Positions 4,341-61,119 of a stretch of 64,000 nucleotides of DNA are shown here, piece by piece. Numbering within the stretch: position 1 is the first letter of the stretch; each line of letters opens with the position of its first letter. A model generated the notes under the pieces. The model ran no database searches, was not told where the DNA came from, and saw only the letters and a program-made list of their open reading frames with translations. Location: assembly GCA_000165345.1 (NCBI GenBank), contig CM000436.1, positions 320,001-384,000 of the forward strand. The letters are read 5' to 3'. The position numbers were made by a program, and so were the translations under genes.

Positions 4341-4352
4341 TTTTGGCGGGAA
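4341..4352. promoter_or_regulatory. E2F-like site TTTTGGCGGGAA upstream of the ADP/ATP carrier gene.
   Basis: Exact match to the canonical E2F core TTTGGCGGGAA, about 280 bp upstream of the ATG at 4059. Confidence 0.5.
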
Positions 4353-4424: not shown

Positions 4425-6802
4425 TTAATTAGTGCAATATATTTCTTGTGCTGGAATAAGTTCATAATTAGCTCTATATTTTAAATATGCATTTTGACGA
4501 TGACTATTCCATGTTGTTGGAGCTTCTTGTATATTATCGGAAATTATTGTTTGATTATTAGAATTATTTATTCCTGTATTATTTGAATTAATAATATTAG
4601 AAAATGCAATTCTTTGTGCAATTAATGGTAAAATTTCATTGAGAGTTTCAATGAGTGGTATAAAATAGTCTAAAGTTAGTAAATATGTTCCATTACTTAA
4701 TCTTTTAGAATCAAAATTATCAAAATCAAATGATTCATAAGCCATTTGCATTGTTCTCCAGCCTGGAATGGTGTACTTACCATCAAACCATCCAAATGGA
4801 CCCATTTTGTTTTGTTCAGTAATATACCATCTTTGATCATATTTATATGTAACATTTGGTGCAATACAATGATTCATAACTTTAGTAATATTTGAAACTC
4901 CTTTATCATAATTTTTATCTAAATATGTGCTTTTTGGTATTAATAACCTTTTATTCATTAATTTTTGTGCGTGTAAATACTGTTGCTGGTTTTGCATGTT
5001 TTTCATTGATACAGATTTTGTAGTCTTGACTGTTTTCACTGGTGATTTTGTTGTTACTATTGTCACTCTTTTTGTAGTGGTAGTAGTTATTATTATAGGT
5101 TTTTTGGTTGTTGTTACTGTAGGTTTTCTAGTTGTAGTAGTAACTATTGGTTTTCTAGTTGTGGTAGTAGCTGTAGGTTTCTTAGTTGTGGTAGTTGCAA
5201 CTATGGGTTTCTTAGTTGTGGTAGTTGCAACTGTGGGTTTCTTAGTTGTGGTAGTAGCTGTAGGTTTTCTAGTTGTGGTAGTAGCTGTAGGCTTCTTAGT
5301 TGTGTTTGTCGTTCCAATGGGTTTCTTGGTAGTAGTTGTGTTAGTTGTCATTGTGGTTTTCTTAGTTGTGGTTGTAGTTCCAATGGGTTTCTTGGTAGTA
5401 GCTGTATAAGTTGCCACTGTGGGTTTCTTAGTTGTGGTTGTCGTTCCAATAGGTTTCTTGGTAGTAGTTGTATTAGTTGCCACTGTGGGTTTCTTAGTTG
5501 TGGTTGTCGTTCCAATAGGTTTCTTGGTAGTAGTTGTATTACTTGTCACTGTGGGCTTCTTAGTTGTGGTTGCCGTTCCTATGGGTTTCTTGGTAGTAGT
5601 TGTGTTAGTTCCCACTGGCTTTCTTGTTGTTGTTGTTGTTGTTGTAACCGTAGGTTTCTTAGTAGTTGTAAAAGTTGTAGTATTTAATGGTTTTGTTTCT
5701 TTATTTATTTTATCAATAGAACTTTCTTTTTCATTCAATGTTTCATCTCTATCTTTTTTAGTTAAAGATTCCAAAAAACTATTTAACCCATCCATAATTG
5801 TTGAATCACCAGAATTTGTATCTTTATTTGATTCTTCCTGTTGCATTTCTTCCTGCTCAAGTTCTAATTCGCTACTCTCTGAATCTTCAGTATTTGTTTC
5901 CTCATTACTGGTATCTGAATTGGTAACATCTGCAGAAGAAGAAGAAGAAGAAGAAGAAGTAGAAGTAGAAGTAGAAGTAGTAGTAGTAGTCATCTTCGTC
6001 GTTGTCGTCGTTGTTGATTGATTTTTTGAAGATATTGGCCTTTTTGTATTTGTAACACTTATTTGATTTGAAATATGAACCTTTTTTTCATTGTTACTCG
6101 ACATTTTGTCAATATTGTTACTTTTCGAGCTTTCAAATTGATTGTCTATTGTATTGCTACTTACAACTAAAGGCTCTTTATCTCCAATATATCTAACGAT
6201 TGTATCGTTAAAGTTAATTGGTTGGTAGTAAAGATGATCGTTAATTATTGGATTTTTAGCATTAAACCATTTAATTCCCATATTTGTATTAAAAAAAACA
6301 ATTCCTGCAATTGGGTAACTCATTATCAATGGTATTACATATTTTTGAGTAATACTATTACTATGAGTAACTACAACAATCTTTCTTGTTTCAAATTTTA
6401 AACAATTATTTACAAGCCAAAATAAAAATGATGAACTTGAAATTGTTTCAGACTTATTTCCAATTTTCGAATTAGTTAATTTTCCAGATTTTCCATAACC
6501 TGGTGGTGATACTGCTGCTACAGTAAAACCATTCTTATAAGCTTCATCTAATACTTTTGATTTTAACCAAGTATCCGCTATTAATTTTCCAATAAACAAA
6601 ACTAAACCTTTTTCTTCACTCTGATCTTGCTTCATTAATACTATTTCAATATCTAATTCTGATGAACAAGATAAAATTTGAGTTTTTGTAGTTATTAATG
6701 ATTTTGTATTTTTTGTTATACTATTAGATGTTTGTACTTTATCATTATTTTCATAAATATTACTTTCAATAAATATATTATTTGTATCATATGATGAAAA
6801 TA
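4425..6802 (-). CDS. Secreted or membrane mucin-like glycoprotein, main exon. It has an alpha/beta-hydrolase-like N-terminal domain, about 17 tandem copies of an 11-aa Thr-rich repeat (TTTTKKPxxTx), and a Cys/Trp-containing C-terminal domain.
   Basis: This is a 796-aa ORF. The N-terminal part resembles an alpha/beta-hydrolase core: LVLFIGK...GFTVAAVSPPGYGKSG and VVVTHSNS at the nucleophile-elbow position. The centre is a Thr/Lys/Pro O-glycosylation-type repeat encoded by a 33-nt tandem DNA repeat. A probable upstream exon is joined through a 70-nt GTAAGT...TTTTAG intron (see the 6873-7272 feature). Confidence 0.6.
5090..5670. repeat. 33-nt tandem repeat, about 17 imperfect copies, encoding the Thr-rich mucin repeats.
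   Basis: The plus-strand unit is GGTTTCTTAGTTGTGGTAGTAGCTGTAGGTTTT-like and repeats head-to-tail. It explains the spurious antisense poly-Val ORFs at 4927-5409 and 5419-6021. Confidence 0.9.
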
Positions 6803-6872
6803 CTAAAATAATCATTAGTTAAATTAAAAAAAAAAAAATTTTCAATTAATTTTAATATTAAATTAAACTTAC

Positions 6873-7272
6873 CTAAAGATTGATAATAAAAATAACTAAA
6901 AATTGCTGGTACAAATATAAAAATTAATGTCAATATACCATTCAATTGTCTTAACTTTTTTCCTCTATGCGATTTTGGTTTTATACATGTTTTACCAATT
7001 ATCCAAGAAATGCCCCATGATATGATTGGAAAACCAAAAAATCCCATAAAAAATAATACTACTTGTATTCTATCTCGCTTATATTTTGTTCTCAGTAATG
7101 ATTTAGATGTTTTTCTTTGAATTATTTCCAGTATTGTTGTATTACTGTCCGTTAAATGATAATAATCATTTTTATCTCCAATATCAAAGTTCTCAAGTTT
7201 TTTATCTTCCTTATTATGCTCTATATTTAATTTTAAATTTTCAATATTATTTTTTCTATTTTCAGTGACCAT
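6873..7272 (-). CDS. Probable exon 1 of the mucin-like gene. It encodes an N-terminal segment with two hydrophobic helices (signal anchor).
   Basis: This is a 161-aa ORF on the same strand, starting with ATG at 7272. Its tail overlaps the ATG of the downstream ORF in another frame. A consensus donor CTTTAG|GTAAGT lies at 6873/6872 and a poly-T tract plus TTTTAG acceptor ends at 6803. Splicing joins ...YYQSL to VFSSYDTNN... in frame (phase 1). E2F-like and GCATGC motifs lie 180-260 bp upstream, at 7452-7526. Confidence 0.5.
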
Positions 7273-7656: not shown

Positions 7657-9849
7657 TCAAAAATTAGCTACATTTTGTATAAATGGATGTGAGAAAGCTT
7701 CAAAAATATTAGGCCTATTTGCAGGATCATAAGTCAAAAGCCAGTTAATATATGATTTGCACTCTGAAGAAACATGATTTTCAAATATTGCACCCTTTTC
7801 AGCCTCTAAAGGTATCAATGAAAACGCTTCAGCAATAGAATTACTTCTTAAACCAAATGGCCTTCTTAAATGAAGAATCTCAAAAAATATACAACCAATT
7901 GCCCAAATATCAACTTTGTGAGAAACTATTCTTGGATTATCTAAAGAATCTCCTGGCCTTAATAGAATTTCTGGTGGCTGATACCAAACAGTACCACCTC
8001 CAATTCTCTCAATAATAATATTCCCAGATTCCTGATCAGATTGCTTACTAAGTCCAAAATCAGCAATTTTACAACATCCTCTATGGAGAATAATATTTCC
8101 AGGCTTTAAATCATAATGAATTATTGGATTCCTATTTGGAGTTATTCTATCACCATTTTTATCCAAGTTATTTAAATAAAGAATACCTTCAAGAATTTGT
8201 CTTATCCAAATAATTGCTAATTCTTCAGGAACATTACCATTTGTTTTTATAAATGTATCTAAATCTGGACCATCACACAGTTCCATAATTGTTACAAGCC
8301 TATCATTATCTACTTCAAAACAGTGAAGCATATTGACAATATTTGGATGTTTAAGATCTCTATGTAGCTTAATCTCATTACTTACTCTTTCTACGCAAAC
8401 CATTCTTTCATGTTCTGTCATATCAGGAGTAAGTTCATGAATTTTTGCAGCTGAAATACTCCAGGTATTCATATTTAATACTTCCCAAACCTCGGCAAAT
8501 CCCCCTTTTCCTATCATATTCAATAGAGTATATGCTTGAGAATCAGATAAAGTACTCAAACTGTTGTATCTTGAATTTTGTTGATGTCTAAATAGCCTGG
8601 ATTTTTTAACATATAGACTTCTTTCAATATCCAAGTTCATTCCTGATAATTCTAGTTTTTTTGTAAAATCTAATATATAATCTTGTCTTTTATTTAATAT
8701 AGAATAAGCAGTATTCTCTAAATTAGAATCCTGTTTCTTCCCAATCATTTCAATTCCATTCAAAATTTGATATGGAGTCTGATTTAGGTATCCTTGTAGA
8801 CGATTCTTTAAATTCATTAAATTCTGAAAGTTCAACCCATCTCTATAAATTTCATCATCAATATATCCTAGATTAATATGCGAAGTATAATGATTATTCT
8901 CAGCCATGTTGTTATTATTATCATCATTATTATTATTGTTATTCTTATTATTACTATCATTATTATTATCTGGATTAGTCGAGGCTAGTGTATTATAATG
9001 AACAATTTCACTTGAAGATATCTGGCTTTCTTCAATTTCTGATTTTTGTAACTCCTTCAAAGTATAACACGAATTATTCATGGAGTTTATACTACTTCTT
9101 TTACTTAAAGCCATACTTCCGCTGATTATTGATCCTTTAATATAACTATTTGCATCAAATTCTTTGTTTTCACTCGAATGTTGGGCTCTTTCAGTTATTA
9201 TATCTTGTGATATTCTATTGGAATTATCACTTTTTTCTTGTTCTTTTAAAATGATTTGCCTCTTTTTTTTCAATATATTGGCATTTGCAGCAGGAGCAAG
9301 ACCTACTTGAGATTCTTGCCAAAATAATTGATTTCTATTTAACTCTCTTTCAATCTTCTTAAGCTGAATTACTGATGTTTTAAAGCTATTCTTAATCAGA
9401 GCAAGCTTTCTTGTGAGATTTTGCTCATTGTCCTTTAGATTCTCTTTCATCAAAGTAATCTCATTACATTTCTCCATAATTTCTTCTATACTCTTATTAT
9501 TTCTTTCCATACAATCATAATCAACACAAGCTGAAATATTTTCCTTAATTTTAATAAGTTTTTCTTTCAATTTTACAATATTATCCAATATTCTATGCCT
9601 ATTTTCAGTATTATTAGATAAAGGTATCGCAAAATTTTGATCTCCTATTGACTGTTTTTCTTCATCAAGATGAATAAAAATTCCTCTTTTTTGTTGTATT
9701 CCATTATTGGAAGGGGAATGTAATCTCCCATAAAATGATTTATATCTACTCAAATACTTTGTTGCGAGAACTTGCTCATGCGCAGAAATTCTATCAATTC
9801 GATCTGAACTCAGGTCTAAATTACTTTCATTTCTATTTTCTAAATTCAT
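7657..9849 (-). CDS. TLK: Tousled-like serine/threonine protein kinase.
   Basis: The C-terminal kinase domain contains GKGGFAEVWEV (Gly loop), the TLK-diagnostic catalytic loop IIHYDLKPGNIIL (HYD instead of HRD), KIADFGLSK (DFG) and WYQPPEIL. A long N-terminal coiled-coil region (residues ~100-200) matches TLK architecture. Confidence 0.8.
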   Translation of the reverse strand: MNLENRNESNLDLSSDRIDRISAHEQVLATKYLSRYKSFYGRLHSPSNNGIQQKRGIFIHLDEEKQSIGDQNFAIPLSNNTENRHRILDNIVKLKEKLIKIKENISACVDYDCMERNNKSIEEIMEKCNEITLMKENLKDNEQNLTRKLALIKNSFKTSVIQLKKIERELNRNQLFWQESQVGLAPAANANILKKKRQIILKEQEKSDNSNRISQDIITERAQHSSENKEFDANSYIKGSIISGSMALSKRSSINSMNNSCYTLKELQKSEIEESQISSSEIVHYNTLASTNPDNNNDSNNKNNNNNNDDNNNNMAENNHYTSHINLGYIDDEIYRDGLNFQNLMNLKNRLQGYLNQTPYQILNGIEMIGKKQDSNLENTAYSILNKRQDYILDFTKKLELSGMNLDIERSLYVKKSRLFRHQQNSRYNSLSTLSDSQAYTLLNMIGKGGFAEVWEVLNMNTWSISAAKIHELTPDMTEHERMVCVERVSNEIKLHRDLKHPNIVNMLHCFEVDNDRLVTIMELCDGPDLDTFIKTNGNVPEELAIIWIRQILEGILYLNNLDKNGDRITPNRNPIIHYDLKPGNIILHRGCCKIADFGLSKQSDQESGNIIIERIGGGTVWYQPPEILLRPGDSLDNPRIVSHKVDIWAIGCIFFEILHLRRPFGLRSNSIAEAFSLIPLEAEKGAIFENHVSSECKSYINWLLTYDPANRPNIFEAFSHPFIQNVANF

Positions 9850-10020
9850 TTTATTCTAAGCTCAAACCATCATCCAAATTTAAGAATCACTATTTACATT
9901 ACATATTATTTAATTAATTGCAAATTAATAACTTAATTTAACCAATTTTACTAAAATTTCAAATACTACCAATTTTTACCAATATTTCTTAAATTTCTAG
10001 TACTTATATATTTTACATAC

Positions 10021-10108
10021 ATACCGGCATTCTGACAGTGTGGGGAAATGCTAAAACACCGGTACTAACATTTGCAGAAATTTGGCGCCAAACACACACG
10101 TAATTATT
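10021..10108. promoter_or_regulatory. Bidirectional promoter core between TLK (minus) and POLE (plus): ACCGGCA / ACACCGGTAC, GTGTGGGGAAATG, the palindromic E2F site TTTGGCGCCAAA, and CACGTAATTA.
   Basis: The motifs lie at 10021-10030, 10056-10065, 10038-10050, 10081-10092 and 10095-10108. The segment sits between divergent ATGs at 9849 and 10306. Confidence 0.6.
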
Positions 10109-10305
10109 AGTAATAAAGAATTAAAAAATATATAGAAAACAGATTTACTTTTAATGAACTATAAGCAAATAAAACTAAGGCATTTATAGATATTAGGCCA
10201 AGTTCAGTAATGCCTTATGGCATTCTTAGGTCGAAATTAACTGAAAAGTTGGTAGATATTTGAAAGTTTGGAAATAACTAAGTTAGGAATTATAACACCA
10301 GTATA

Positions 10306-13300
10306 ATGAAGAGAAGTAAAAGCTACAGGGACAATGGTCGAAAAAAGTTTGAGAGGAAGACCACTGAAAGAAAGAAAGGTAGGTTTGAGTTAGGTGGCTC
10401 TTCCAATATTGATAAAAAGTTTGGAATCAATTTTCAAAAAATTGGAGTAAATCATAGGGAAATTGGTTATTTATACAATGTTCAAGTATCATCAGAATTA
10501 ATATCTGAATCTGGAACAGCATTTGATGGAATGGAAATTGGAACTCTAGAATCTTCATCAGAACTTATTGAATCTTATAAAGAACGTTCATGTCTTAATT
10601 TATATTTTATTAATAAACAAGGAATGACATTTAAAAGTCCATTCTTCTTTAGACCATATTTTTACTTGGAAGCACAAAAAGCTGTTGATATCCATTGGAT
10701 ATTAACCAATCTTGAACATAAATATAGAGATACTACTATAGAATTTACTAATATAATGAAAGAGGATTTAACTCTTGATAATCACTTAATTGGTGAAAAA
10801 AGAGAGGTTATTAAAGCTTCTTTTGATAATGTTAAGGAACTTGTTTCTATTAGAAATGAAATTCTTGATCATATCAAGAGAAATAAGCTTGAAAAAAAAA
10901 AGAATGAAAGTTTAAGTGCTTATTACGATCAGGATCAACAAAACAACTATGAAAATAAAACTCTTGATGTATTGGATTCTATTTCAGAAATTTACGAATA
11001 TGATGTTCAATATGAAGCACGAGTTATGATTGATAACTCCATTTCTATTGGAATGTGGTATGATTCTGTACGTTGGACTCATGAACTTTTGGAATTAAAA
11101 TGTTTAGATCATGATACTTCTGCTCCTGATTTAAGAAGTTTAGCTTGGGATATTGAAACTACTAAAGATCCTTTAAAGTTCCCTAATGTAGAGAAAGACC
11201 AAATTATGATGATTTCTTGTATGTTTGAAGGTCAAGGATACCTAATTACTAATAGAGAAATTGTTTCTGCTGATATATATGATTTTGAATACTCTCCTAA
11301 AAAGGAGTATGAATCATTCTTCAAATGTATTAATTATCCTGATGAAAAAGAACTTATTTGGGGATTTATTAAACTTATTCAGACTTTAAGACCTCATATC
11401 ATTGCTTCTTATAATGGAGATAATTTTGATTTTCCTTTTCTATATGAAAGAGCTAAAAAATATGATATCGATGTTTCCAAAGAATGGGGAATACGAATGG
11501 AAATTGATCATTCCTCTGGAGGAGGATTACAATCTTCTAATAAAACTATCTTTTCTGGAACTAATATTATTCATTTAGATTGTTTTAGATGGGTAGAAAG
11601 AGATTCATATCTTCCTTGTGGTTCTAGAGGTTTAAAAAGTGTTACTAAAGCAAAGTTAAGATATAATCCTGTTGAACTTGATCCTGAATTAATGGTTCCT
11701 TATGCAAAAACAAATCCTCAAGGTCTTGCAGAATATTCTGTTTCAGATGCAGTTGCTACTTATTTTCTTTATAAGACTTATGTTCACAGATTTATATTTG
11801 CTTTAGCTACTATAATTCCTTTATCTGGAGAAGATCTTCTTAGAAAAGGGTCTGGTACTCTTTGTGAACATTTATTAATGAAAGAAGCTTTTACTAAGAA
11901 TATTTTATTTCCAAACAAAAAAGTTCAAGAAACTATGGAATTTTATCAAAATAGACCCATCTTAAATAGTACTTATGTTGGAGGTACTGTAGAATCTTTA
12001 TGTAGTGGAGTATTTAGAGCTGATATTCCTGAAAAATTCTGTTTAAATACCGATACCCTTAAACATTTAATTAAAATATTAGATACTACTTTGAATTTTG
12101 GTATTAAAGATTCTGGTACTACAATTGATAATATTGAAAATTATGAACAAGTCAGAAATGAAATTCTTGAAAAATTGCAAAGTTTATTAGAATCTCCCAG
12201 AATTAAAATTGAGCCTTTAATATATCATCTTGATGTTGCTGCTATGTATCCTAATATTATTCTAACTAATAGATTACAACCAACAGCAGTAATAGAAGAG
12301 ACAACTTGTATGAAATGTCCATTCAATTCTGAGTCAAAACTTTGCCAAAGAAGGATGAATTGGAGATGGAAAGGAGATGTTTTTCCAATTTCCAAAGGAG
12401 AGATGGAGAGAATGATTAATCATATCCAAATTGAGACTTTTGAAAATGTTAAGAATGAAATAGGAGCAGTTAACAAGAAAAAGAAATTTGAAGATCATGA
12501 AAGTGATTCAGAAAATGATGATAAGATGGAATTTACTGGAGAAAATGTTAATATTAATAATAAAGAAAAGATTAAATGGTCATCTTTAACTCCTAGACAA
12601 CAATCCGAGATTTTAATACAAAGAATGAAAGCTTATTGTAATAAGATATATAGAAAACAAACTGAGAATATTGAAGAGACAAGATCTTCAATAGTTTGTC
12701 AAAGAGAAAATCCTTTTTATATAGATACAGTTAGACGTTTTAGAGATAGAAGATATGTTTATAAAGGTAAGAAAAAAGAAGCAGAAGAAAAGTTAAAGAG
12801 AGCTGAATTATTAGGAGATTTATTAGCAGTACAGGAAGCACAGAATGAAGAGCTTTTATATGAATCTTTACAATTAGCTCATAAATGTATTTTAAATTCT
12901 TTTTATGGCTATGTTATGAGAAAAGGGAGTAGATGGTTTTCTATGGAAATGGCTGCTATTGTTACATGGGTAGGTGGTAATGTGATTAGAGAAGCAAGAT
13001 CTTTAATGGAAGGTATCGGTAGACCTTTAGAATTAGATACCGATGGGATTTGGGCAATACTTCCAAAAGGATTTCCAGAGGAAATCACTTTTAGATTAAA
13101 GGATGGTGGTAAGAAGAAGATTCATTATATTTGTACTTTGTTAAATCAACAAGTTCACAAAAGTTGGACAAATGATCAATATTTGGAATATGATGCAGAT
13201 CTTGGGAAATATAATATTAAAGTAGAGAATTCAATATATTTTGAAGTGGATGGTCCATATAAATGTTTCTTTATTCCAGCTTCTGATAAACAGAATAAGC

Positions 13301-16300
13301 TTTTAAAGAAGAGATATGCAGTTTTTGATTTTGAAAATAGGCTTAAAGAACTTAAAGGGTTTGAATTAAAGAGAAGAGGAGAGCTTCAATTGATAAAAAT
13401 TCTTCAGGAGGAGTTATTTCCAGCATTTTTAAAAGGTAATTCAAAGAAAGAAGCATATGATCATGTAGCTGCAATATCAAAGAAATGGTTAAGTTTGATA
13501 GATACTAAAGGAAGAGGTATTTTAGATGATGAACAATTATTCTTTTTGATTTCAGAGTCAAAGAATATGTCAAAGAGTGTACAACAGATGGGGAATGCTA
13601 AGTCAATGTCAATTACAACAGCAAAGAGACTTTTTGAATTTCTTCAGAATCCTTCATATATTCAGGATAAGAATATTGTTTGTAAGTTTATTGTTTCAGA
13701 GTTCCCTAAAGGAGAAGATAAAAGTCAAAGAGCAGTTCCTCTTTCTATTTTTTCAACACCTTTAGAGACAAGAGTTTCATGGCTTTCTAAATGGCTGAGA
13801 ATAAGTAAATCTGGTGGAAGGAGAGAAAAGGATGAGTTGGTGGAGCACAGGAGGAAAGCAGATGTAGATATAACGAGTGGCAGTGGTGGTGGCAGTGGTA
13901 TTCTTAATAAAGAGAATGAGAATAACAAATGGAATGTTCGTAACATTCTGGACTGGGAGTACTATAAGAACAGGCTTACAAACACTATTTTAAAGATAGT
14001 TATAATTCCTGCAATTAACCAGGGGGTTCCAAATCCTCTTCCAGAATTAGAGGTACCGAGTTGGGTAAGATACCATTCAGAGATAGTTGGTACAAATCAA
14101 CAAAAGATTTCAGAGTACTTTAATGTTGTTAAGAAGGAGGAGAAAAAGAAGAGCAGTTTCTCTGAACTTCCTAATTATAATTCTATTATTCAAGGCCGAA
14201 GTCAAGATCATGGTCAAACTCAAGATCAGGGTCAAACTCAAGATCAGGGCCAAATTCAAGATCAGGGTGTAATTCAAGACCAGGGCCAAAATCGAAATCA
14301 AAACTTAACTTTAGGTCAAGGCCAAATTCAAGATCAGGGTCAAACTCAAGATCAGGGTCAAACTCAAGATCATGGCCAAATTCAAGATCATAGCCAAATT
14401 CAAGATCATGGCCAAACTCAAGATCAGGGTCAAACTCAAGATCAGGGTCAAATTCAAGATCAGGGTCAAATTCAAGATCATGGCCAAACTCAGGCTTGTA
14501 AAATTGTAGAAACCAGAAATAACAACAGTATTTCAAAATTGAATGGAAAACTGACAAAAAAAGAGAGGATTGAATTATTCAAGGAAAAAGGATTTAAATC
14601 CTGGTTAGAGTACCATAAGAAATTTTGGTTGGAGAATTTTCATGCATTTAATGAAAAACAGTCAGAACTTGAAAAGAAGCTAAAAAATATTGATATAGAA
14701 AAACTTGAATATTTTGGAAAAGGTAATACTGCAAAAGGTATCGAATTTTTATCTGAATATATTTTCTTAACGAAAGGAAGATTTCATATTTTAGATATAT
14801 ATCCTCTTAGTATCCAACAAAGGAATATTAAAAGAAATTATGATGAAGATCTACTGGGATTTTATAATGTTGTTATGTACTCTGAAGAAACAGGAGATTG
14901 TTTTACTGTTACATTTGAGTTCCTTAGACGTTTTTATATTGCTACAAATGTTCAAATTCAAATTATGGATAATGATGATGATGGTGAATTTATTACAAAA
15001 TCTATAGCTACAGGGAAAGAGTTACCTAGAGGGGTACCGTATAATCATTTAACAGAAGTAATAATTTCAGAGAGAAGATTTCAGAAATCAAAATCAACAT
15101 TGATTTGTGATAATAATACTGTTGGTATTTATGAGACAAATTTACCACTTGAATTTTCTATTTTAGAAAAATTTGGGAATATCATAGAAAGTAATACTCC
15201 TAATGTTGAGAAATTACTTCTTAAGAATGGAGCAATTACTGATAAATTTTGGAATTCTGCTGGTGGATTAAAAGAGAAGAATTTGAATTATGGAGATATA
15301 ATACATTGGTTATTTCTTTCAATATGTACTTTTGAAGAAAGAAAATGTTTCTCTTTAACAGATTTAAGTAAGAAAAGAATTTACTTCTTTCTTGGATTAG
15401 GACCAACTATTTCTAATAATATTCTTAAATCTGAGCTTCATAGACAAATTCAACAAGATCAAAGATTGGAAAAGATTACTGAAATTCATGTTAATTATTT
15501 TAAGACAACAAAAGATTGTTTAGAAGAATTGGATCGACTTTTGAAAGATTTAATCCAAGAATTTCCAAAAGAACCTATAGTTCTTTTAATACAATCAATG
15601 GTTAGATTAGAAGAACTTAAAACACATAATAGTGAATTAAATCTTTATAAAACTATATTAAGAGAATATATTTCTGAAATGGAACATAATAAGAAAGTTA
15701 TTGAAACTAAAATAGTAACATTATGGGAAGAAATAATAGATTTTGATTCAAGTAATTCAATATTTAGTAGATTTGATTGGCATAAAGATTCGATTAGATA
15801 TTCATTAAAAGCTTTAAAAGAAGCAATTAATAAACTTCAGCTATCATTAGAACTTTCTAAAGCTTTAAGACTTCCAGTATTATATTTACTTCAATTTAAA
15901 AAAAACTTAACAAACTTTTTATATGATATAATATATTCCAGAGAACTTCATTCTATGGGATTATTAAGCTGGGGATCTTTAAGATCCACTCCAGATCTTG
16001 GGAATCCTAAGTTAATCCAACTTTCAAAAAGTGATTGGGATCTTAGAAGACTTGGATATTTAATGCCAACAAAAGATCTTAATAACTCTAAAGGAGGAAG
16101 AGTAGGTGGAGGACATAGTAATTGTAATACTAATAGCTTAGATGAATTGGATGTATTGGAAGTAGTAAGACCAGGAATCTATAGAAACTATGGGGTTCAA
16201 TTGGATTTCAAGCAATGGCTAATAATTGAATCTGTAAGAAATTGTAGGTTACTCTCTGATAAGTACAACTTGGATGACTTTGAACAAGGAGAGAAACGTA

Positions 16301-18492
16301 TTCTTGGAGCTGATTGTAAGAAAAAGAATTCTGAAAAAGATGATAAGAATAAAGATGTTTTGATCTATAATCTAGGTAGTAGAAAGCATTTGAGTAATCC
16401 AAATAATAAACAAGGCTTATTGATTTCTCAGCCTTTATATAACCATTCATCATTATCCACAAGCTCAGCTTTTCTATGTTTAGAGAAAACTATCAATAGA
16501 ATGAGATCAGTAATTGAAAACCATGAAAAAGTGGAGTCTATCTTTAGAATATACAATGCTCAAAAAACTTGTGAGAATGAACAATTTGATCAAATGAATG
16601 ACAATATTCTTGGTAAAGAAGAAGAGAAAGGGGGGAGAGAAGATAGGAAAAGGAGGAGAGAAGAAGAGGAGAAAGGGGAGGAAGAGGAAGGGGAGGAAGA
16701 GGAGGGGGAGGAAGAGGAAGAAGAAGAAGAAACTTCAAGCTTACTTTTTGAGTTTATGGTAACTCTCCAGGAAAGATTCTACTCTTGGTTATCTTCTTCC
16801 AACTCTCTCTTGTATGACCCAGCTTTAATAGAGATGACAAAAGATTATGCTCATTGGTATTTTAAATCTCTTGAATCTGATATGAGAGAAATGGGAATCC
16901 AAGTAGTATATGGAAATATTAGAAAAATGATCTTAACATTTAATTTGGATGAATTGAAGAATAATAGTATTAGGAATAATAGTGATCTCCAAAATCAGTT
17001 TTCTAAACTTATGCAAATATTAAATAACAGAGAACTATATTCTGGTATTTCTTTAGATCCTACTGTAGAGTATAAGGCTATGATTCAAATTGACAGAACA
17101 AATTATATTAGAAGAACCTTGGGAGGAGGAGGATCTGGAAGTTTGGAAGATCCATATGAAATGAATCTAAGTTTATTGAACTACTTTCCAATAAATTCTA
17201 GAAAATACATTGTTGGCGAGATTTCTAACTTTTTGATGGAGCCTCTTAGAGAATTGAGAAACTACTTCAAGAAGAATTCCAATTTATCTCTTAAGGAATC
17301 TTTGCAAATATTGGGAGACATAGTTTTGGAACAATTTGGACCTTTTAGTGAGAATTTTCAAAACTTTTTGCAGGCTATTTCCAATCCAAATACATATATT
17401 GTAAGTAAATATGGAATTCAACAGTTTGATGATCCACTAAATGATATTGGATGGAATGATGATATAATAGGGGAAGGAGAGGAAGTGAAGGAAAAGAGGA
17501 AGATTATTGAAGAGGAGGAAGAGGAGGAGGAGGAAGAAGAAGAAGAAGAAGGAAAAAGAAGGAAGAAAAAGAATGCAAACTCAATATTAGAAGAAAACGA
17601 CGATACCCTATTACTAAAGAGGAATCTAGAAAATCTAGACATTAATAATAATAGAGATGATATTCCTTTTGCTATATACCCAAATTCAATAAAGAAAAAA
17701 GGAAATAGCCATTCATTAAGGATTGAAGCTTCAACAAAAAGAATGGAAGAAAAAGGAATAAGAAAAAGAAGAAATTTCAAAGACTTATTTGAATTCCCTC
17801 CATGTATTGGAAAAGCTTATAATGGAAATAAACCCTCATTAAGCTTGGAATTAATAAAATTATTTATTTATATTTGGGGATTGGATAAATCCTTTTCAAT
17901 AGATGAATCTAAACAGAAACAATATGAACAAATAATTTTTATGGTTTGCCAAGCTGTGGATATTTCAGAGTTTAATCCAATAGTTACAGAGAAATGGACT
18001 AGTCCTTTAATTCCTTATATAATCAAAGACTTTTCTTGTCCAAATTGTTTTGAAATAGAAGATTTTGACTTTACTGGGAATGCAATACAAGATGAAGATG
18101 ATCTTGGATTATCAAGTAATAATTACAATAATATAATTAGACCAAGGTTTACTTGGTATTGTAGTCATTGTAACTTTTCTATTGATAATGAAATTTTAGA
18201 AGAAAAGCTACTTCTTGAATTCTTTGAAAGATTGGAAGTTATTCAATCACAAGATATTCTCTGTTCAAGATGTAACTCCGTTCAAATAGGTTACATGCAA
18301 AAGCATTGCGATGAATGTATGGGAGAATTAACAACAAGACTTGGAAATCATAAAACTTTCCATAATTTCTTTACTCTATTCAACTCGGTTGCTCAATATT
18401 ATTCTGATCTAAATAATGAAGAAGATGAAAATCCACAATTCCAAGGCCTTATTGAATTTAAAAATATGTATGATAATATTTTATACATTTAA
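10306..18492 (+). CDS. POLE: DNA polymerase epsilon catalytic subunit A.
   Basis: The 2728-aa ORF has B-family exonuclease motifs LAWDIETTK and SYNGDNFDFPFLYERA; polymerase motifs HLDVAAMYPNIILTNRLQP, LNSFYGYVMRKGSRWFSMEMA and LELDTDGIW; and C-terminal CysX2Cys zinc modules CPNCFE...CSHCN and CSRCN...HCDEC. Colinear with Pol2/POLE throughout. Confidence 0.95.
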   Translation: MKRSKSYRDNGRKKFERKTTERKKGRFELGGSSNIDKKFGINFQKIGVNHREIGYLYNVQVSSELISESGTAFDGMEIGTLESSSELIESYKERSCLNLYFINKQGMTFKSPFFFRPYFYLEAQKAVDIHWILTNLEHKYRDTTIEFTNIMKEDLTLDNHLIGEKREVIKASFDNVKELVSIRNEILDHIKRNKLEKKKNESLSAYYDQDQQNNYENKTLDVLDSISEIYEYDVQYEARVMIDNSISIGMWYDSVRWTHELLELKCLDHDTSAPDLRSLAWDIETTKDPLKFPNVEKDQIMMISCMFEGQGYLITNREIVSADIYDFEYSPKKEYESFFKCINYPDEKELIWGFIKLIQTLRPHIIASYNGDNFDFPFLYERAKKYDIDVSKEWGIRMEIDHSSGGGLQSSNKTIFSGTNIIHLDCFRWVERDSYLPCGSRGLKSVTKAKLRYNPVELDPELMVPYAKTNPQGLAEYSVSDAVATYFLYKTYVHRFIFALATIIPLSGEDLLRKGSGTLCEHLLMKEAFTKNILFPNKKVQETMEFYQNRPILNSTYVGGTVESLCSGVFRADIPEKFCLNTDTLKHLIKILDTTLNFGIKDSGTTIDNIENYEQVRNEILEKLQSLLESPRIKIEPLIYHLDVAAMYPNIILTNRLQPTAVIEETTCMKCPFNSESKLCQRRMNWRWKGDVFPISKGEMERMINHIQIETFENVKNEIGAVNKKKKFEDHESDSENDDKMEFTGENVNINNKEKIKWSSLTPRQQSEILIQRMKAYCNKIYRKQTENIEETRSSIVCQRENPFYIDTVRRFRDRRYVYKGKKKEAEEKLKRAELLGDLLAVQEAQNEELLYESLQLAHKCILNSFYGYVMRKGSRWFSMEMAAIVTWVGGNVIREARSLMEGIGRPLELDTDGIWAILPKGFPEEITFRLKDGGKKKIHYICTLLNQQVHKSWTNDQYLEYDADLGKYNIKVENSIYFEVDGPYKCFFIPASDKQNKLLKKRYAVFDFENRLKELKGFELKRRGELQLIKILQEELFPAFLKGNSKKEAYDHVAAISKKWLSLIDTKGRGILDDEQLFFLISESKNMSKSVQQMGNAKSMSITTAKRLFEFLQNPSYIQDKNIVCKFIVSEFPKGEDKSQRAVPLSIFSTPLETRVSWLSKWLRISKSGGRREKDELVEHRRKADVDITSGSGGGSGILNKENENNKWNVRNILDWEYYKNRLTNTILKIVIIPAINQGVPNPLPELEVPSWVRYHSEIVGTNQQKISEYFNVVKKEEKKKSSFSELPNYNSIIQGRSQDHGQTQDQGQTQDQGQIQDQGVIQDQGQNRNQNLTLGQGQIQDQGQTQDQGQTQDHGQIQDHSQIQDHGQTQDQGQTQDQGQIQDQGQIQDHGQTQACKIVETRNNNSISKLNGKLTKKERIELFKEKGFKSWLEYHKKFWLENFHAFNEKQSELEKKLKNIDIEKLEYFGKGNTAKGIEFLSEYIFLTKGRFHILDIYPLSIQQRNIKRNYDEDLLGFYNVVMYSEETGDCFTVTFEFLRRFYIATNVQIQIMDNDDDGEFITKSIATGKELPRGVPYNHLTEVIISERRFQKSKSTLICDNNTVGIYETNLPLEFSILEKFGNIIESNTPNVEKLLLKNGAITDKFWNSAGGLKEKNLNYGDIIHWLFLSICTFEERKCFSLTDLSKKRIYFFLGLGPTISNNILKSELHRQIQQDQRLEKITEIHVNYFKTTKDCLEELDRLLKDLIQEFPKEPIVLLIQSMVRLEELKTHNSELNLYKTILREYISEMEHNKKVIETKIVTLWEEIIDFDSSNSIFSRFDWHKDSIRYSLKALKEAINKLQLSLELSKALRLPVLYLLQFKKNLTNFLYDIIYSRELHSMGLLSWGSLRSTPDLGNPKLIQLSKSDWDLRRLGYLMPTKDLNNSKGGRVGGGHSNCNTNSLDELDVLEVVRPGIYRNYGVQLDFKQWLIIESVRNCRLLSDKYNLDDFEQGEKRILGADCKKKNSEKDDKNKDVLIYNLGSRKHLSNPNNKQGLLISQPLYNHSSLSTSSAFLCLEKTINRMRSVIENHEKVESIFRIYNAQKTCENEQFDQMNDNILGKEEEKGGREDRKRRREEEEKGEEEEGEEEEGEEEEEEEETSSLLFEFMVTLQERFYSWLSSSNSLLYDPALIEMTKDYAHWYFKSLESDMREMGIQVVYGNIRKMILTFNLDELKNNSIRNNSDLQNQFSKLMQILNNRELYSGISLDPTVEYKAMIQIDRTNYIRRTLGGGGSGSLEDPYEMNLSLLNYFPINSRKYIVGEISNFLMEPLRELRNYFKKNSNLSLKESLQILGDIVLEQFGPFSENFQNFLQAISNPNTYIVSKYGIQQFDDPLNDIGWNDDIIGEGEEVKEKRKIIEEEEEEEEEEEEEEGKRRKKKNANSILEENDDTLLLKRNLENLDINNNRDDIPFAIYPNSIKKKGNSHSLRIEASTKRMEEKGIRKRRNFKDLFEFPPCIGKAYNGNKPSLSLELIKLFIYIWGLDKSFSIDESKQKQYEQIIFMVCQAVDISEFNPIVTEKWTSPLIPYIIKDFSCPNCFEIEDFDFTGNAIQDEDDLGLSSNNYNNIIRPRFTWYCSHCNFSIDNEILEEKLLLEFFERLEVIQSQDILCSRCNSVQIGYMQKHCDECMGELTTRLGNHKTFHNFFTLFNSVAQYYSDLNNEEDENPQFQGLIEFKNMYDNILYI
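14201..14495. repeat. Near-perfect 18-nt tandem repeat (CAAGATCAGGGTCAAACT)n, about 16 copies, encoding (GQTQDQ)n inside POLE.
   Basis: Direct head-to-tail copies with only a few substitutions sit in the variable linker after the conserved ILDWEYYKNRL block of Pol epsilon. The repeat generates the spurious antisense ORF at 14186-14557. Confidence 0.9.
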
Positions 18493-18650: not shown

Positions 18651-18714
18651 GCATGTGGGTTTGGCGGGCCATTGCGTGTATGAACCTGCATGTAGTGGCG
18701 GTAACATCTTTGCC
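18651..18714. promoter_or_regulatory. GCATG plus E2F-like TTTGGCGGGCC and GTGGCGG motifs in the convergent POLE / SEC24 3'-3' spacer.
   Basis: Read directly. Unusually, the motifs are downstream of both flanking genes. Confidence 0.35.
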
Positions 18715-22980: not shown

Positions 22981-23015
22981 ATGTGGGGAAATGTTTCTAG
23001 TGTCCTATACCGGTG
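22981..23015. promoter_or_regulatory. ATGTGGGGAAATG and ATACCGGTG motifs upstream of the 23210 gene.
   Basis: The same two motifs co-occur in the TLK/POLE promoter. Confidence 0.45.
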
Positions 23016-25622: not shown

Positions 25623-25668
25623 AGCGCCAAATCGCATGCATTTTCATGTGGACAATTCAATACCGGTA
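25623..25668. promoter_or_regulatory. GCGCCAAA half-site, GCATGCAT and TACCGGTA in the convergent spacer between the 23210 gene and clathrin.
   Basis: Read directly. The cluster sits 3' of both neighbours. Confidence 0.35.
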
Positions 25669-32193: not shown

Positions 32194-32281
32194 TTTGGCG
32201 CCATACGTGGCGCTTCTTGGCGCCTAAAGTTGAAATTATTATTTTGTGAGAGCATGTAAAGGAGATATAATGTGGGGAAAT
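32194..32281. promoter_or_regulatory. Bidirectional clathrin / centrin promoter: three E2F-like half-sites (TTTGGCGCCA, GTGGCGCT, CTTGGCGCCTAAA) and TGTGGGGAAAT.
   Basis: Positions are 32194-32203, 32208-32215, 32217-32229 and 32270-32281. Confidence 0.55.
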
Positions 32282-34800: not shown

Positions 34801-34917
34801 AATTACGTCATTTTAAATTTGGCGCCTAAATAAATTCATGAACACTGTACCGGTATTCATGCACAATTTTTTTTTTTTCAGTTAATATATTTATCCACAT
34901 AAATCACACGTAATTAA
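34801..34917. promoter_or_regulatory. Bidirectional LMBR1-like / SMC5 promoter: AATTACGTCA, TTTGGCGCC, GTACCGGTAT, CATGCAC and CACACGTAATTAA.
   Basis: Positions are 34801-34810, 34818-34826, 34848-34857, 34858-34864 and 34904-34917. Confidence 0.55.
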
Positions 34918-45789: not shown

Positions 45790-54210
<8,421 letters not shown>

Positions 54211-54305
54211 CTTCAACTAATTTGCAAACTTCTTCCTCCTTTTTCCTTTTCCTTATCCCATATAATCCTCTTACCTAAATTTTCACTGCTTGACTTTGCC
54301 AAATG

Positions 54306-54315
54306 TTGGCGCCAT
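54306..54315. promoter_or_regulatory. E2F-like TTGGCGCCAT upstream of the Med14-like gene.
   Basis: Lies about 95 bp upstream of the ATG at 54210. Confidence 0.45.
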
Positions 54316-54696
54316 TTCCCCACCAAGAAATTCTAAAAAGAAATATAATTGGGGTAAAAATCATCAGTTTTTGATGAAATTTATTTGAAACTAAGCAAAT
54401 TGAGATGGAATATAATTATTACTATTAGATTTATCTTATTTTATGAGTGAAATTCAAGAGAAGCTTTTTCAATAGTATTTCCCCTAATTTCCTAATTGAC
54501 TTTTTCAAGCTTACACAATATAATCAATACTGACATGGACAAATCTGAATATAAAGAAAATTAAAATTAATTGAAATGCAAATTAAGTTAAAATTAAATT
54601 AAACTATTAAAATATTCAAAGGTGAAGGCACTCAGCCAATTCTTTGATTTTTTCTATTCTTAAGGAGTTTGCTCACATGAGCAAAAGTTGAATTAC

Positions 54697-56040: not shown

Positions 56041-56092
56041 TTGCATGCAAAACTCCTCATTAATAAAAATTGGTACACCAAACTTTGGCGCC
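56041..56092. promoter_or_regulatory. TTGCATGCAA and TTTGGCGCC in the divergent SPO11 / 56638-gene promoter.
   Basis: Positions are 56041-56050 and 56084-56092. Confidence 0.5.
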
Positions 56093-56637
56093 TAAATGTC
56101 ACTCGACGTTAATTACCGTCAACCTTGGCAATTTTATTGCCGGCAGCATTTAGAGGTAAAAAAATAATATAAAATTGGTACCTAGTAAAAATTTGAGAGT
56201 TTTAGGTGCTTTTCTAGCCAAATTTTTTGAATTTCGGTATACTTTTCTAGATATATAATTGGAGTTGCTGTTTGTAGGGTTACTGGATATTATTGGATAT
56301 CAATTATAAGAAAGGATTTGATAAAATTTGGTATTGAAAATCAATTTTTTGGTATTAAAAAGGTTTTTTGGATTTTTATTCAGCTTCTAAGTGCTTATTT
56401 AGCAGAATTTTTTAACAATATTCTCAAAGCAATAAATAAGTTAAGTTTCTACTTTTCTTTTGGTATTTATATATTTTTGAATGCCTTTAATTAAAATTAT
56501 TAAATCGCATTTTTTAGACCCATTGCCTCAGGATTCAAATATAAAAGAGTTTTCAAGAGATAGAATACGGAGATAGGATTAATATTCGAGATTGAATCAC
56601 AGTGATTACTATTTTTCTGTTTATTTTAAATAATCAT

Positions 56638-58780: not shown

Positions 58781-58898
58781 TACACGTAATTAACTTGTCA
58801 GATTTTTTTTTTTTTGCTATTCAATTTTTATCTTGCATGCACTTAGACTGTAAAAATTTGCATGAATTTGGCGCCTATTTGGCTTTGCCACGTCATTG
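58781..58898. promoter_or_regulatory. Promoter of the SLC35 transporter gene: TACACGTAATTAAC, TGCATGCA, TTTGCATG, TTTGGCGCC and CACGTCATTG.
   Basis: Positions are 58781-58794, 58844-58851, 58857-58864, 58867-58875 and 58889-58898. Confidence 0.5.
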
Positions 58899-60791: not shown

Positions 60792-60802
60792 TTGGCGCCA
60801 AA
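60792..60802. promoter_or_regulatory. E2F-like TTGGCGCCAAA upstream of the 61120 gene.
   Basis: Lies about 320 bp upstream of the ATG at 61120. Confidence 0.45.
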
Positions 60803-61119
60803 TGATAAAGACTTTAAAAAGCCAAAATTAAAAAAGAAAATATAATTAAGTAAAAAAATAAATAAATAAATTGAAAAATAACGAGATTTGAGATAAAAAA
60901 GGAGCTTGGGTATAAAAACAAAGGATTTAAATATATAATAATCGGATTAGCGCAAATATTTGTTGAAATATTGTAACATTTATTAAGTTTCAAATAGAAA
61001 ATAATAATTGGTCTTTATTAGAGGTACTAAGTACTAGTTAATATAAATCAGTAATAACTACAATGTTAAGTAAATATTATTTCTAATAAACTAAAGGTAT
61101 TAGGAAGTAATTTAGAAAG

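What the first reader, a model, noticed from the sequence alone, without database searches (positions are those of the whole stretch)
9850..10305. E2F sites sit in front of replication and chromosome-maintenance genes (POLE-TLK divergent pair, SMC5, centrin).
The palindromic full site TTTGGCGCCAAA lies in the 456-bp spacer shared by divergently transcribed TLK (an S-phase chromatin-assembly kinase) and POLE. E2F-like sites also precede SMC5 (34818) and the centrin/clathrin pair (32194-32229). This fits E2F/DP control of S-phase genes. The shared bidirectional promoter implies co-regulation of TLK and POLE.
Basis: inference. Interest (0 to 1): 0.5.

Follow-up and report, generated by a model that had tools for sequence, protein, structure and literature searches.

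The report
Common Cryptosporidium E2F promoter motif
The palindrome is a real, evolutionarily conserved E2F-type promoter element between a tousled-like kinase gene and the DNA polymerase epsilon gene of Cryptosporidium parvum, but this already-published motif sits in front of most genes here, so it does not mark S-phase genes.

Summary
The window is Cryptosporidium parvum chromosome 8. TTTGGCGCCAAA occurs once, at 10081-10092, in the middle of the 456-bp spacer between a divergent TLK-like kinase gene (cgd8_1230) and POLE (cgd8_1240). The sites before SMC5 and centrin are also real.

These sites are far beyond chance: TTTSGCGC has 10 hits against 0.18 expected. They are also under constraint. 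TGGCGCCAAA is invariant in five Cryptosporidium species and is among the most conserved 12-mers of the spacer.

The S-phase reading is weakly supported. E2F-like sites lie in 10 of 12 promoter-bearing spacers of the window. These spacers include those of a mitochondrial carrier, Sec24, clathrin, Med14 and a GDP-fucose transporter.

Published work already calls this the most over-represented upstream motif in C. parvum (161 of 200 expression clusters). It is also the top motif in open-chromatin peaks, more than half of which are bidirectional promoters.

The perfect 12-bp palindrome is itself not conserved. The site is one part of a conserved composite core: G-box, TACCGGTA, E2F, CACACGTAAT. 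Binding by E2F/DP and TLK-POLE co-expression remain untested.

Verdict: a real feature of an already known kind. The only possibly new item is the TACCGGTA element.

The parts
9850..10305 (.). 456-bp divergent spacer (putative bidirectional promoter) between the TLK-like kinase gene and POLE
   Evidence: ORF map and Pfam. The spacer has no ORF above 28 aa apart from one that overlaps the kinase start. There is no Rfam or tRNA hit. The divergent arrangement is kept in 8 Cryptosporidium species, with spacers of 216-686 bp.
10081..10092 (.). E2F-type site TTTGGCGCCAAA (core TGGCGCCA). It matches the consensus TTTSGCGC on both strands.
   Evidence: A single copy, against 0 in shuffles. TGGCGCCAAA is invariant in C. 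parvum, chipmunk genotype I, C. ubiquitum, C. canis and C. felis. The 12-mer ranks 8th of 445 for conservation. In each ~7-kb orthologous locus of the four other species the spacer holds exactly one E2F-type site, at this position; the only other hit is one site inside the C. felis TLK coding sequence.
10039..10045 (+). G-box TGTGGGG (published motif 2, DTGTGGGG; a type bound by ApiAP2 domains)
   Evidence: Conserved in 7 of 8 species in alignment A2; C. felis differs. The motif class comes from PMC3734150 Table 1. It is not enriched window-wide: 4 hits against 1.8 expected.
10058..10065 (.). ACCGGTAC element (TACCGGTA family). CACCGGTACTAACATTTGCA is the most deeply conserved block of the spacer.
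   Evidence: It gives the top conservation windows in the 8-species alignment. ACCGGTA has 8 hits against 0.61 expected in the window. In the orthologous loci it occurs almost only at the orthologous spacer positions.
10093..10104 (+). CACACACGTAAT block directly next to the E2F site (CACACA is a published ApiAP2-bound motif; CACGTAAT recurs)
   Evidence: The windows overlapping GCCAAACACACA are the most conserved in the 5-species alignment. CACGTAAT has 5 hits against 0.40 expected, 4 of them in promoter spacers. CACACA binding by AP2 domains is reported in PMC4117751.
7657..9849 (-). Tousled-like kinase candidate (cgd8_1230), 730 aa
   Evidence: Pkinase domain. The best PDB match is TLK2 5o0y at 167.6 bits, against PLK1 at 90.6, and the alignment extends upstream of the kinase domain. 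It is an exact match to C. parvum EAK89341.1. The kinome paper left it unclassified among other kinases.
10306..18492 (+). DNA polymerase epsilon catalytic subunit (cgd8_1240), 2728 aa
   Evidence: Pfam POL2_thumb, DNA_pol_B_exo1, DUF1744 and zf-DPOE. [quoted passage not shown]
32194..32228 (.). Cluster of three E2F-like sites in the clathrin heavy chain | centrin divergent spacer
   Evidence: Coordinates. Two or three GCGCC-type sites are kept at the same place in 8 species. They are preceded by a G-box, TTGAGGGGT (32180-32188), that is invariant in those species.
34818..34830 (.). E2F-like site TTTGGCGCCTAAA in the LMBR1-like | SMC5 divergent spacer (34676-35096)
   Evidence: Kept in all 8 species as TTTGGCGCC, TTTGCCGCC (C. 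felis) or CTTGCCGCT (C. ryanae), about 256-293 bp from the SMC5 ATG in the seven species where the scan scored it. Conservation rank 11-13 of 410. Exon 1 of the LMBR1-like gene ends at its ATG, 34675.
34848..34855 (.). TACCGGTA palindrome next to the SMC5 E2F site
   Evidence: TACCGGTATTCATGCA is the most conserved block of this spacer; ACCGGT is invariant in all 8 species.
56084..56096 (.). E2F-like site TTTGGCGCCTAAA in the Spo11 | unknown-637 divergent spacer
58867..58877 (.). E2F-like site TTTGGCGCCTA, 243 bp upstream of the GDP-fucose transporter gene (not a replication gene)
   Evidence: Gene name.
60792..60803 (.). E2F-like site TTGGCGCCAAAT upstream of an unknown 844-aa ORF
54305..54316 (.). 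E2F-like site GTTGGCGCCATT upstream of the Med14-domain gene
   Evidence: Med14 domain.
4342..4352 (+). E2F-like site of the published motif-4 type, TTTGGCGGGAA, upstream of the mitochondrial carrier gene
   Evidence: Motif 4 is TTTGGCGGGAAV in PMC3734150.

Best explanation
The 12-mer is a genuine, selectively constrained cis-element of the E2F class. It sits at the centre of a compact composite promoter shared by C. parvum cgd8_1230 (TLK-like kinase) and cgd8_1240 (POLE).

Most likely mechanism (inferred): an E2F/DP heterodimer, encoded elsewhere in the genome, binds the GC core TGGCGCCA in a nucleosome-free stretch. It acts together with factors that bind the adjacent G-box, TACCGGTA and CACACGTAAT elements. 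Together they open chromatin and support transcription in both directions.

In Cryptosporidium this motif is the general-purpose, most common promoter element. It is not a selective S-phase switch. Its presence therefore says 'active promoter of the E2F class', not 'cell-cycle regulon'.

Shown here: sequence match, enrichment, position in promoter spacers and conservation. Inferred: E2F/DP binding, bidirectional action and any timing of expression.
For: - Match and rarity.
- Promoter bias: 1.66 sites per kb in promoter spacers against 0.18 per kb in coding sequence, p = 1.2e-6, with 10 of 12 promoter spacers occupied against 0.58 expected.
- Constraint: TGGCGCCAAA is invariant in 5 species, ranks 8th of 445, and is the only E2F-type site in the spacer in each ~7-kb orthologous locus.
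- C. xiaoi carries a canonical E2F half-site, GCGGGAAA, at the same place.
- The SMC5 and centrin sites are kept in 8 species.
- Flanking conserved elements.
- The divergent gene pair is conserved in 8 species.
- Literature, motif frequency: the E2F motif (TGGCGCCA; DTTGSCGCCH) is the most over-represented upstream motif in C. parvum (PMC3734150), found in 161 of 200 clusters (PMC4117751).
- Literature, open chromatin: E2F is the top motif in sporozoite ATAC-seq regulatory peaks, and more than half of those peaks are bidirectional promoters (bioRxiv 10.1101/2025.01.17.633476).
- Literature, factors: two E2F and two DP genes are annotated (PMC12246861).
Against: - No binding, chromatin or transcript data could be examined for this locus. 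[quoted passage not shown]
- The site is missing in C. serpentis and degenerate in C. ryanae (ACGGGAAA), while the TACCGGTA block persists. The E2F element is therefore not indispensable for this promoter across the genus.
- Transcription start sites are unknown, so whether one site serves both genes is not shown.
- E2F-like sites also occur in two convergent spacers and in coding sequence, so not every copy is a gene promoter.
Confidence: 0.72

Rival explanations
1. One reading: the sites define an E2F/DP S-phase regulon. They would selectively switch on replication and chromosome-maintenance genes (TLK, POLE, SMC5, centrin) during DNA synthesis in merogony.
For: - All four spacers next to DNA or chromosome genes carry a strict TTTGGCGC site, against 2 of 8 others (one-sided p = 0.03).
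- The literature notes E2F-like motifs upstream of DNA replication genes.
- E2F and DP transcripts peak in early asexual stages.
- From general knowledge, E2F controls G1/S genes in animals and plants.
Against: - The test is post hoc, on 12 spacers. It counts meiotic Spo11 and centrosomal centrin as 'chromosome' genes.
- With any E2F-like site the contrast vanishes (p = 0.42).
- Sites also precede a mitochondrial carrier, Sec24, clathrin, Med14 and a GDP-fucose transporter.
- Genome-wide, the motif is upstream of 161 of 200 clusters peaking at any time point, including ribosomal protein and oocyst wall genes.
- No Rb orthologue is known in apicomplexans.
Confidence: 0.2
2. The GGCGCC motif is functional but is read by a factor other than E2F/DP, for example a zinc-finger or other unassigned DNA-binding protein. 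Alternatively it acts mainly as a GC-rich nucleosome-excluding element in AT-rich DNA.
For: - No experimental E2F binding exists for Cryptosporidium.
- The motif is far more frequent than expected for a two-gene transcription factor family.
- The authors themselves warn that motif presence does not prove binding.
Against: - The sequence fits the E2F/DP consensus, including the T/A flanks.
- Variants seen in other species (TTTGCCGCC, GCGGGAAA) stay inside the E2F consensus TTTSSCGC rather than drifting freely.
- Protein-binding arrays of AP2 domains did not return this motif.
- Among studied apicomplexans, E2F/DP genes are reported only in Cryptosporidium, the genus where this motif is over-represented.
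Confidence: 0.12
3. The element serves only one of the two genes (most likely POLE). The kinase gene uses separate elements, so the spacer is two back-to-back promoters and not one shared bidirectional promoter.
For: - The distance from the site to the POLE ATG is steadier (168-221 bp) than to the kinase ATG (194-300 bp) across five species.
- The strictly conserved half, TTTGGCGCCA, is read on one strand only.
- The kinase-side half of the spacer is poorly conserved.
Against: - All conserved elements sit in one ~70-bp block at the centre of the spacer.
- No second conserved block lies on the kinase side.
Confidence: 0.2
4. Chance occurrence of a GC-rich 12-mer with no function.
For: None beyond the fact that single motif matches can arise by chance.
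Against: - None of 100 shuffles contain it.
- Related 8-mers show about 55-fold enrichment.
- The core is invariant across five species in an otherwise 59%-identical spacer.
Confidence: 0.01

Closest known systems
Cryptosporidium parvum E2F-like upstream motifs (Oberstaller et al. 2013: motif 3 DTTGSCGCCH, motif 4 TTTGGCGGGAAV; abstract consensus TGGCGCCA)
   Same: The sequence is identical in form: TTTGGCGCCA fits DTTGSCGCCH. It has the same upstream location and is in the same organism. The window also holds motif-4-type sites at 4342 and 22596. The genome-wide analysis behind that paper will have covered these upstream regions.
   Different: That work did not single out this gene pair, as far as the held text shows. 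It did not use cross-species footprinting or report the flanking TACCGGTA block.
Animal and plant E2F/DP binding sites (consensus TTTSSCGC), including overlapping inverted sites such as the one I recall at the mammalian DHFR promoter (TTTCGCGCCAAA; from memory, not checked)
   Same: A GC core with T/A flanks, palindromic potential, and a position in promoters of replication genes.
   Different: In animals and plants the sites mark a restricted G1/S regulon controlled through Rb-family pocket proteins. In Cryptosporidium no Rb orthologue is known and the motif precedes most genes. No CHR element (TTYGAA) lies next to the site; the nearest is at 10259.
Bidirectional promoters in open chromatin of C. 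parvum (Xiao et al. 2025 preprint)
   Same: A short divergent spacer with a single central E2F motif. That paper reports E2F as the top motif of regulatory ATAC peaks and says more than half of those peaks are bidirectional.
   Different: Whether this particular spacer has an ATAC peak could not be checked, because no supplementary files are held.

Membership tests
E2F/DP binding site | Match to consensus TTTSSCGC (GC core with a T-rich flank) | tested here: met
   TTTGGCGC is present on both strands at 10081-10092. The sites at 34818, 32194, 56084, 58867 and 60795 also match.
E2F/DP binding site | Located in a promoter, close to the transcription start | tested here: inconclusive
   The site is central in a divergent spacer, 223 and 234 bp from the two ATGs, and sites are 9-fold denser in promoter spacers than in coding sequence. 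Transcription start sites are not available here.
E2F/DP binding site | Cognate E2F and DP proteins encoded by the organism | not tested
   From the literature only: two E2F genes (cgd1_1560, cgd6_1430) and two DP genes (cgd7_3650, cgd8_1850). None lies in this window.
E2F/DP binding site | Physical occupancy by E2F/DP (EMSA, ChIP, CUT&RUN) | not testable with these tools
   The 2025 review states that very few putative Cryptosporidium regulatory components have experimental confirmation and cites no E2F-binding data.
E2F/DP binding site | Purifying selection on the site relative to neighbouring non-coding DNA | tested here: met
   TGGCGCCAAA is invariant in 5 species and ranks 8th of 445. The SMC5 site ranks 11-13 of 410 and is kept within the consensus in 8 species. 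The TLK|POLE site is lost in C. serpentis and degenerate in C. ryanae.
E2F-controlled S-phase regulon | Motif selectively associated with replication or cell-cycle genes | tested here: not met
   10 of 12 promoter spacers carry E2F-like sites, including those of transport, trafficking and Mediator genes. The contrast is 4/4 against 6/8, p = 0.42. The strict form gives p = 0.03, post hoc. The literature finds the motif in 161 of 200 clusters.
E2F-controlled S-phase regulon | Target transcripts periodic and co-expressed in S phase | not testable with these tools
   Only cgd8_1230 was found, in expression cluster 69, in the held supplement. cgd8_1240 was not in the stored part.
E2F-controlled S-phase regulon | Pocket-protein (Rb) or DREAM-type control, with a CDE/CHR partner element | tested here: not met
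   No TTYGAA lies next to the site; the only copy in the spacer is at 10259-10264, 167 bp away. The literature finds no Rb orthologue in apicomplexans.
Bidirectional promoter | Divergent genes less than 1 kb apart, arrangement conserved, one shared conserved core | tested here: met
   The spacer is 456 bp. The arrangement is kept in 8 species. There is a single conserved ~70-bp block at 10039-10104.
Bidirectional promoter | Both transcripts start at the shared core and depend on it | not testable with these tools
   No transcript or reporter data are available.
Tousled-like kinase (identity of ORF 7657-9849) | Kinase domain closest to TLK rather than to other kinase families, with similarity extending into the pre-kinase region | tested here: met
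   TLK2 5o0y scores 167.6 bits over query residues 405-723, starting 35 residues before the kinase domain. The next family (PLK1) scores 90.6 bits.
Tousled-like kinase (identity of ORF 7657-9849) | N-terminal coiled-coil region and a reciprocal best match to TLKs of other eukaryotes | not tested
   The homology search returned only Cryptosporidium orthologues and unnamed sequences. The kinome paper left cgd8_1230 unclassified.

The most novel reading that the evidence does not exclude
The E2F site may not be the key element of these promoters. The neighbouring palindrome TACCGGTA (10058-10065, 34848-34855, and also 23008, 25661 and 41265) is enriched about 13-fold. It is found almost only in intergenic spacers. 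It is conserved more deeply than the E2F site: ACCGGT is invariant in all 8 species at SMC5, and at TLK|POLE the block persists in C. xiaoi and C. ryanae where the GGCGCC-type site is replaced by a half-site or degenerate, and more loosely in C. serpentis where the site is lost. It is absent from the 25 published over-represented C. parvum motifs. It could be an undescribed core promoter element, or the binding site of an unassigned transcription factor that partners with E2F in Cryptosporidium bidirectional promoters.
Probability: 0.3. Interest if true: 0.45.

Novelty: already known. Interest (0 to 1): 0.2.

Why it matters
Among studied apicomplexans, E2F/DP factors are reported only in Cryptosporidium, and how they are used there is an open question with no binding data. 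This locus adds no new principle, but it is a clean test case:
- a short spacer conserved across the genus;
- a single central E2F site;
- a divergent TLK/POLE pair;
- natural variants of the site (a full palindrome in C. parvum, a half-site in C. xiaoi, loss in C. serpentis).

Such a case suits reporter or CUT&RUN work. The practical lesson for the scan is that E2F-like sites in this genome cannot be used to infer cell-cycle function, because they precede most genes.

Tried and rejected
- Rfam and tRNA scans of the whole window found nothing. The conserved block is therefore not a known RNA gene. The spacer holds no ORF above 28 aa other than one overlapping the kinase start.
- Co-expression of cgd8_1230 and cgd8_1240 could not be checked. 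The stored part of the Oberstaller supplement shows only cgd8_1230, in cluster 69. No supplement is held for the 2025 ATAC-seq preprint. Bankier et al. 2003 is not held.
- The G-box TGTGGGG is conserved locally but not enriched window-wide, at 4 hits against 1.8 expected. TCCACATAAAT is not enriched either.
- A CHR partner element (TTYGAA) next to the E2F site, as in animal cell-cycle promoters, is absent.
- No consistent orientation of the half-palindromic sites relative to the downstream gene was seen among the nine canonical sites.
- My first regular expression for the site missed the C. felis and C. ryanae SMC5 variants and the C. xiaoi half-site. These were recovered from the alignments.
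- A literature search for ACCGGT as a Cryptosporidium cis-element returned only primer and cloning-site hits.

Full report
**Where the window comes from.** Proteins encoded in the window are exact matches to Cryptosporidium parvum entries: EAK89341.1 protein kinase, SMC5, centrin, Spo11 and the GDP-fucose transporter, with locus tags cpbgf_80012xx. The kinase gene lies at about 316 kb on 1.33-1.38 Mb chromosome records of four C. parvum assemblies. The kinase is cgd8_1230 and the polymerase is cgd8_1240. The window has 21-38% G+C, and about 86% of it is long ORFs.

**Checking the observation.**
- TTTGGCGCCAAA occurs once, at 10081-10092. It appears in none of 100 dinucleotide-preserving shuffles.
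- It sits in the 456-bp spacer 9850-10305. On one side is a minus-strand kinase ORF (7657-9849). On the other is a plus-strand 2728-aa ORF with the domain set of the DNA polymerase epsilon catalytic subunit.
- The site is 234 bp from the kinase ATG and 223 bp from the POLE ATG.
- The kinase is best matched among solved structures by human TLK2, at 167.6 bits against 90.6 for PLK1. The alignment runs into the region before the kinase domain. The TLK call is reasonable, although the published kinome left the gene unclassified.
- The other cited sites are real: TTTGGCGCCTAAA at 34818-34830, and three sites at 32194-32228.
- One detail needs correcting. The gene to the left of SMC5 is an LMBR1-like membrane protein with an intron, and its ATG is at 34675. 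That spacer is therefore 421 bp, and the site is 145 bp from that gene and 277 bp from SMC5.

**More than chance.**
- TTTSGCGC has 10 hits against 0.18 expected. GGCGCC has 12 against 0.20.
- I used a gene map with corrected starts. E2F-like sites are [GC]GCGC[GC], GGCGGG or TGGCGC. They occur at 1.66 per kb in the 12 promoter-bearing spacers and 0.18 per kb in coding sequence. This holds even though the spacers have lower G+C (Fisher p = 1.2e-6).
- Ten of the 12 promoter spacers have at least one site, against 0.58 expected from Markov resampling. Six have the strict TTTGGCGC form, against 0.06 expected.

**Conservation.** I fetched the orthologous TLK-POLE region from C. ubiquitum, chipmunk genotype I, C. 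canis, C. felis, C. xiaoi, C. ryanae and C. serpentis.
- The divergent gene pair is kept in all of them, with spacers of 216-686 bp.
- In the five species closest to C. parvum, the spacer averages 59% column identity, yet TGGCGCCAAA is invariant. The 12-mer ranks 8th of 445 windows, and the top-ranked windows all overlap it and the adjacent CACACAC.
- In each ~7-kb locus of those species, the spacer holds exactly one E2F-type site, at the orthologous position. The only other E2F-type hit is one site inside the C. felis TLK coding sequence.
- The left T-tract is not conserved (TTT, CTT, AAT). The perfect 12-bp palindrome is therefore limited to C. parvum and chipmunk genotype I and is not what selection keeps.
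- At the same place, C. xiaoi has GCGGGAAA, the reverse complement of the canonical TTTCCCGC. C. ryanae has ACGGGAAA, one mismatch away. C. serpentis has no site. This looks like ordinary binding-site turnover.
- The SMC5 site is kept in all eight species examined, always within the E2F consensus: TTTGGCGCC, TTTGCCGCC in C. felis and CTTGCCGCT in C. ryanae. It lies about 256-293 bp from the SMC5 ATG in the seven species where the scan scored it, and ranks 11-13 of 410.
- The centrin cluster is kept as two or three GCGCC sites in all eight.

**What surrounds the site.** The E2F element is one part of a conserved block of about 70 bp, 10039-10104. Its parts, in order, are:
- G-box TGTGGGG;
- ACCGGTAC;
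- TTTGCA;
- the E2F site;
- CACACACGTAAT.

G-box and CACACA motifs are bound by C. parvum AP2 domains on protein-binding arrays. The ACCGGTA element stands out:
- it has 8 hits at 6 loci against 0.61 expected, and 5 of the 6 loci are in spacers;
- it is the most conserved block, across all eight species examined, of both the TLK|POLE and the LMBR1|SMC5 spacers;
- in the 26 fetched loci it occurs almost only at those orthologous positions;
- it is not among the 25 published over-represented motifs.

CACGTAAT is also enriched, at 5 hits against 0.40 expected. The SMC5 spacer also has a conserved CRE-like element, TTACGTCAT.

**How it most likely works.** The best reading is a composite bidirectional promoter core. 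An E2F/DP dimer would bind the GC core in an open-chromatin stretch, alongside factors for the neighbouring elements. The sequence match, promoter bias and conservation are shown here. Binding, bidirectional action and timing are inferred. The literature supports the general picture:
- The E2F motif (TGGCGCCA) is the most over-represented upstream motif in C. parvum.
- It is found upstream of 161 of 200 expression clusters.
- It is the top motif in sporozoite ATAC-seq regulatory peaks, more than half of which are bidirectional promoters.
- Two E2F and two DP genes are annotated, with peak expression early in asexual growth.
- The 2025 review also states that very few of these putative regulatory components have experimental confirmation.

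**Why the S-phase reading is weak.**
- In this window, E2F-like sites also precede a mitochondrial carrier, an unknown ~920-aa gene, Sec24, clathrin, Med14, a GDP-fucose transporter and two further unknown genes. Only the unk464|calpain and unk293 spacers lack one.
- With any E2F-like site, spacers next to chromosome-biology genes (4/4) do not differ from the others (6/8; p = 0.42).
- With the strict TTTGGCGC form the contrast is 4/4 against 2/8 (p = 0.03). The grouping is post hoc, uses 12 spacers, and includes meiotic Spo11.
- Published clusters with the motif peak at every time point and include ribosomal protein and oocyst-wall genes. No Rb orthologue is known.
- No CHR element lies next to the site.
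- I therefore rate the selective-regulon reading at about 0.2. It is worth a genome-wide test but is not supported here.

**Other rivals.**
- A non-E2F reader of the motif cannot be excluded without binding data. However, the variants seen in other species stay within the E2F consensus.
- The site may serve only POLE. Its distance to the POLE ATG is steadier than its distance to the kinase ATG. Against this, there is only one conserved block in the spacer.
- Chance is excluded.

**Comparison with what is known, and verdict.** The element fits the published C. parvum E2F-like motif 3 (DTTGSCGCCH) exactly, in the organism where that motif was described genome-wide. The kind of feature is already known, and this copy is an ordinary instance. 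It differs from animal and plant E2F sites in how widely it is used, not in sequence. Interest is low (0.2). The only item that may be new is the TACCGGTA element, which is conserved more deeply than the E2F site itself.

Noticed in passing
window 10058-10065, 23008-23014, 25661-25668, 34848-34855, 41265-41271, 62581-62587: The ACCGGTA / TACCGGTA palindrome has 8 hits (6 loci) against 0.61 expected, and 5 of the 6 loci are in intergenic spacers. It is the most deeply conserved block in two promoter spacers. It is absent from the 25 published C. parvum upstream motifs. The factor that reads it is unknown.
   Followed up: partly
window 10097-10104, 34907-34914, 41243-41250 (-), 58783-58790, 62534-62541; also 34803-34811: CACGTAAT recurs, with 5 hits against 0.40 expected, 4 of them in promoter spacers. 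In front of both POLE and SMC5 it lies about 190-210 bp from the ATG. The SMC5 spacer also has a CRE-like TTACGTCAT, conserved in 7 of 8 species.
   Followed up: partly
window 18660-18670 and 25624-25668: E2F-like sites lie in two unusually long convergent (3'-3') spacers. TTTGGCGGGCC lies between POLE and Sec24. GCGCCAAAT, together with GCATGCA and TACCGGTA, lies between the unknown-717 gene and clathrin. They look like promoters with no annotated gene, and may belong to the antisense lncRNAs reported to carry upstream E2F motifs (PMC7840661).
   Followed up: no
window 20366-20377 (Sec24 CDS), 46088-46108 and 51832-51843 (Med14-domain CDS): Near-perfect E2F palindromes lie inside coding sequence, for example GTTGGCGCCAAAA in Sec24. 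GGCGCC occurs 4 times in coding sequence, although about 0.2 is expected for the whole window. This could reflect Gly-Ala codons or internal or antisense promoters.
   Followed up: no
window 62534-62587, inside ORF 61120-63654: A promoter-like group of motifs (CACGTAAT, CCGCC, ACCGGTA) sits inside the 844-aa unknown ORF. The exact ORF translation is not in the protein collection. The gene model here may be split or may hold an internal promoter.
   Followed up: no
window 33093-34675 and 35097-39379: Gene models differ between assemblies. The LMBR1-like gene has a 5' exon at 34571-34675, giving 506 aa against the 489-aa ORF. SMC5 has a 3' exon at about 39056-39376, giving 1409 aa against 1314 aa. 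That exon leaves only about 13 bp before the next convergent gene.
   Followed up: partly
window 4425-7272 (-): Two overlapping minus-strand ORFs (4425-6815 and 6787-7272) are annotated as one gene of 883-925 aa, with different lengths in different C. parvum assemblies. This suggests an intron, a frameshift or a length-variable repeat. There are no Pfam hits.
   Followed up: no
L011 2223-2241, L012, L013 (TLK|POLE spacers of C. xiaoi, C. ryanae, C. serpentis): The E2F site turns over within the genus. The GGCGCC palindrome becomes the half-site TTTCCCGC in C. xiaoi, a one-mismatch version in C. ryanae, and a T-run in C. serpentis. The flanking G-box, ACCGGTAC-like and TTTGCA elements persist.
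   Followed up: yes
window 7657-9849 (-): cgd8_1230 is left unclassified among 'other' kinases in the C. parvum kinome paper and named only 'protein kinase' by public sources. Its best solved-structure match is clearly TLK2.
   Followed up: partly
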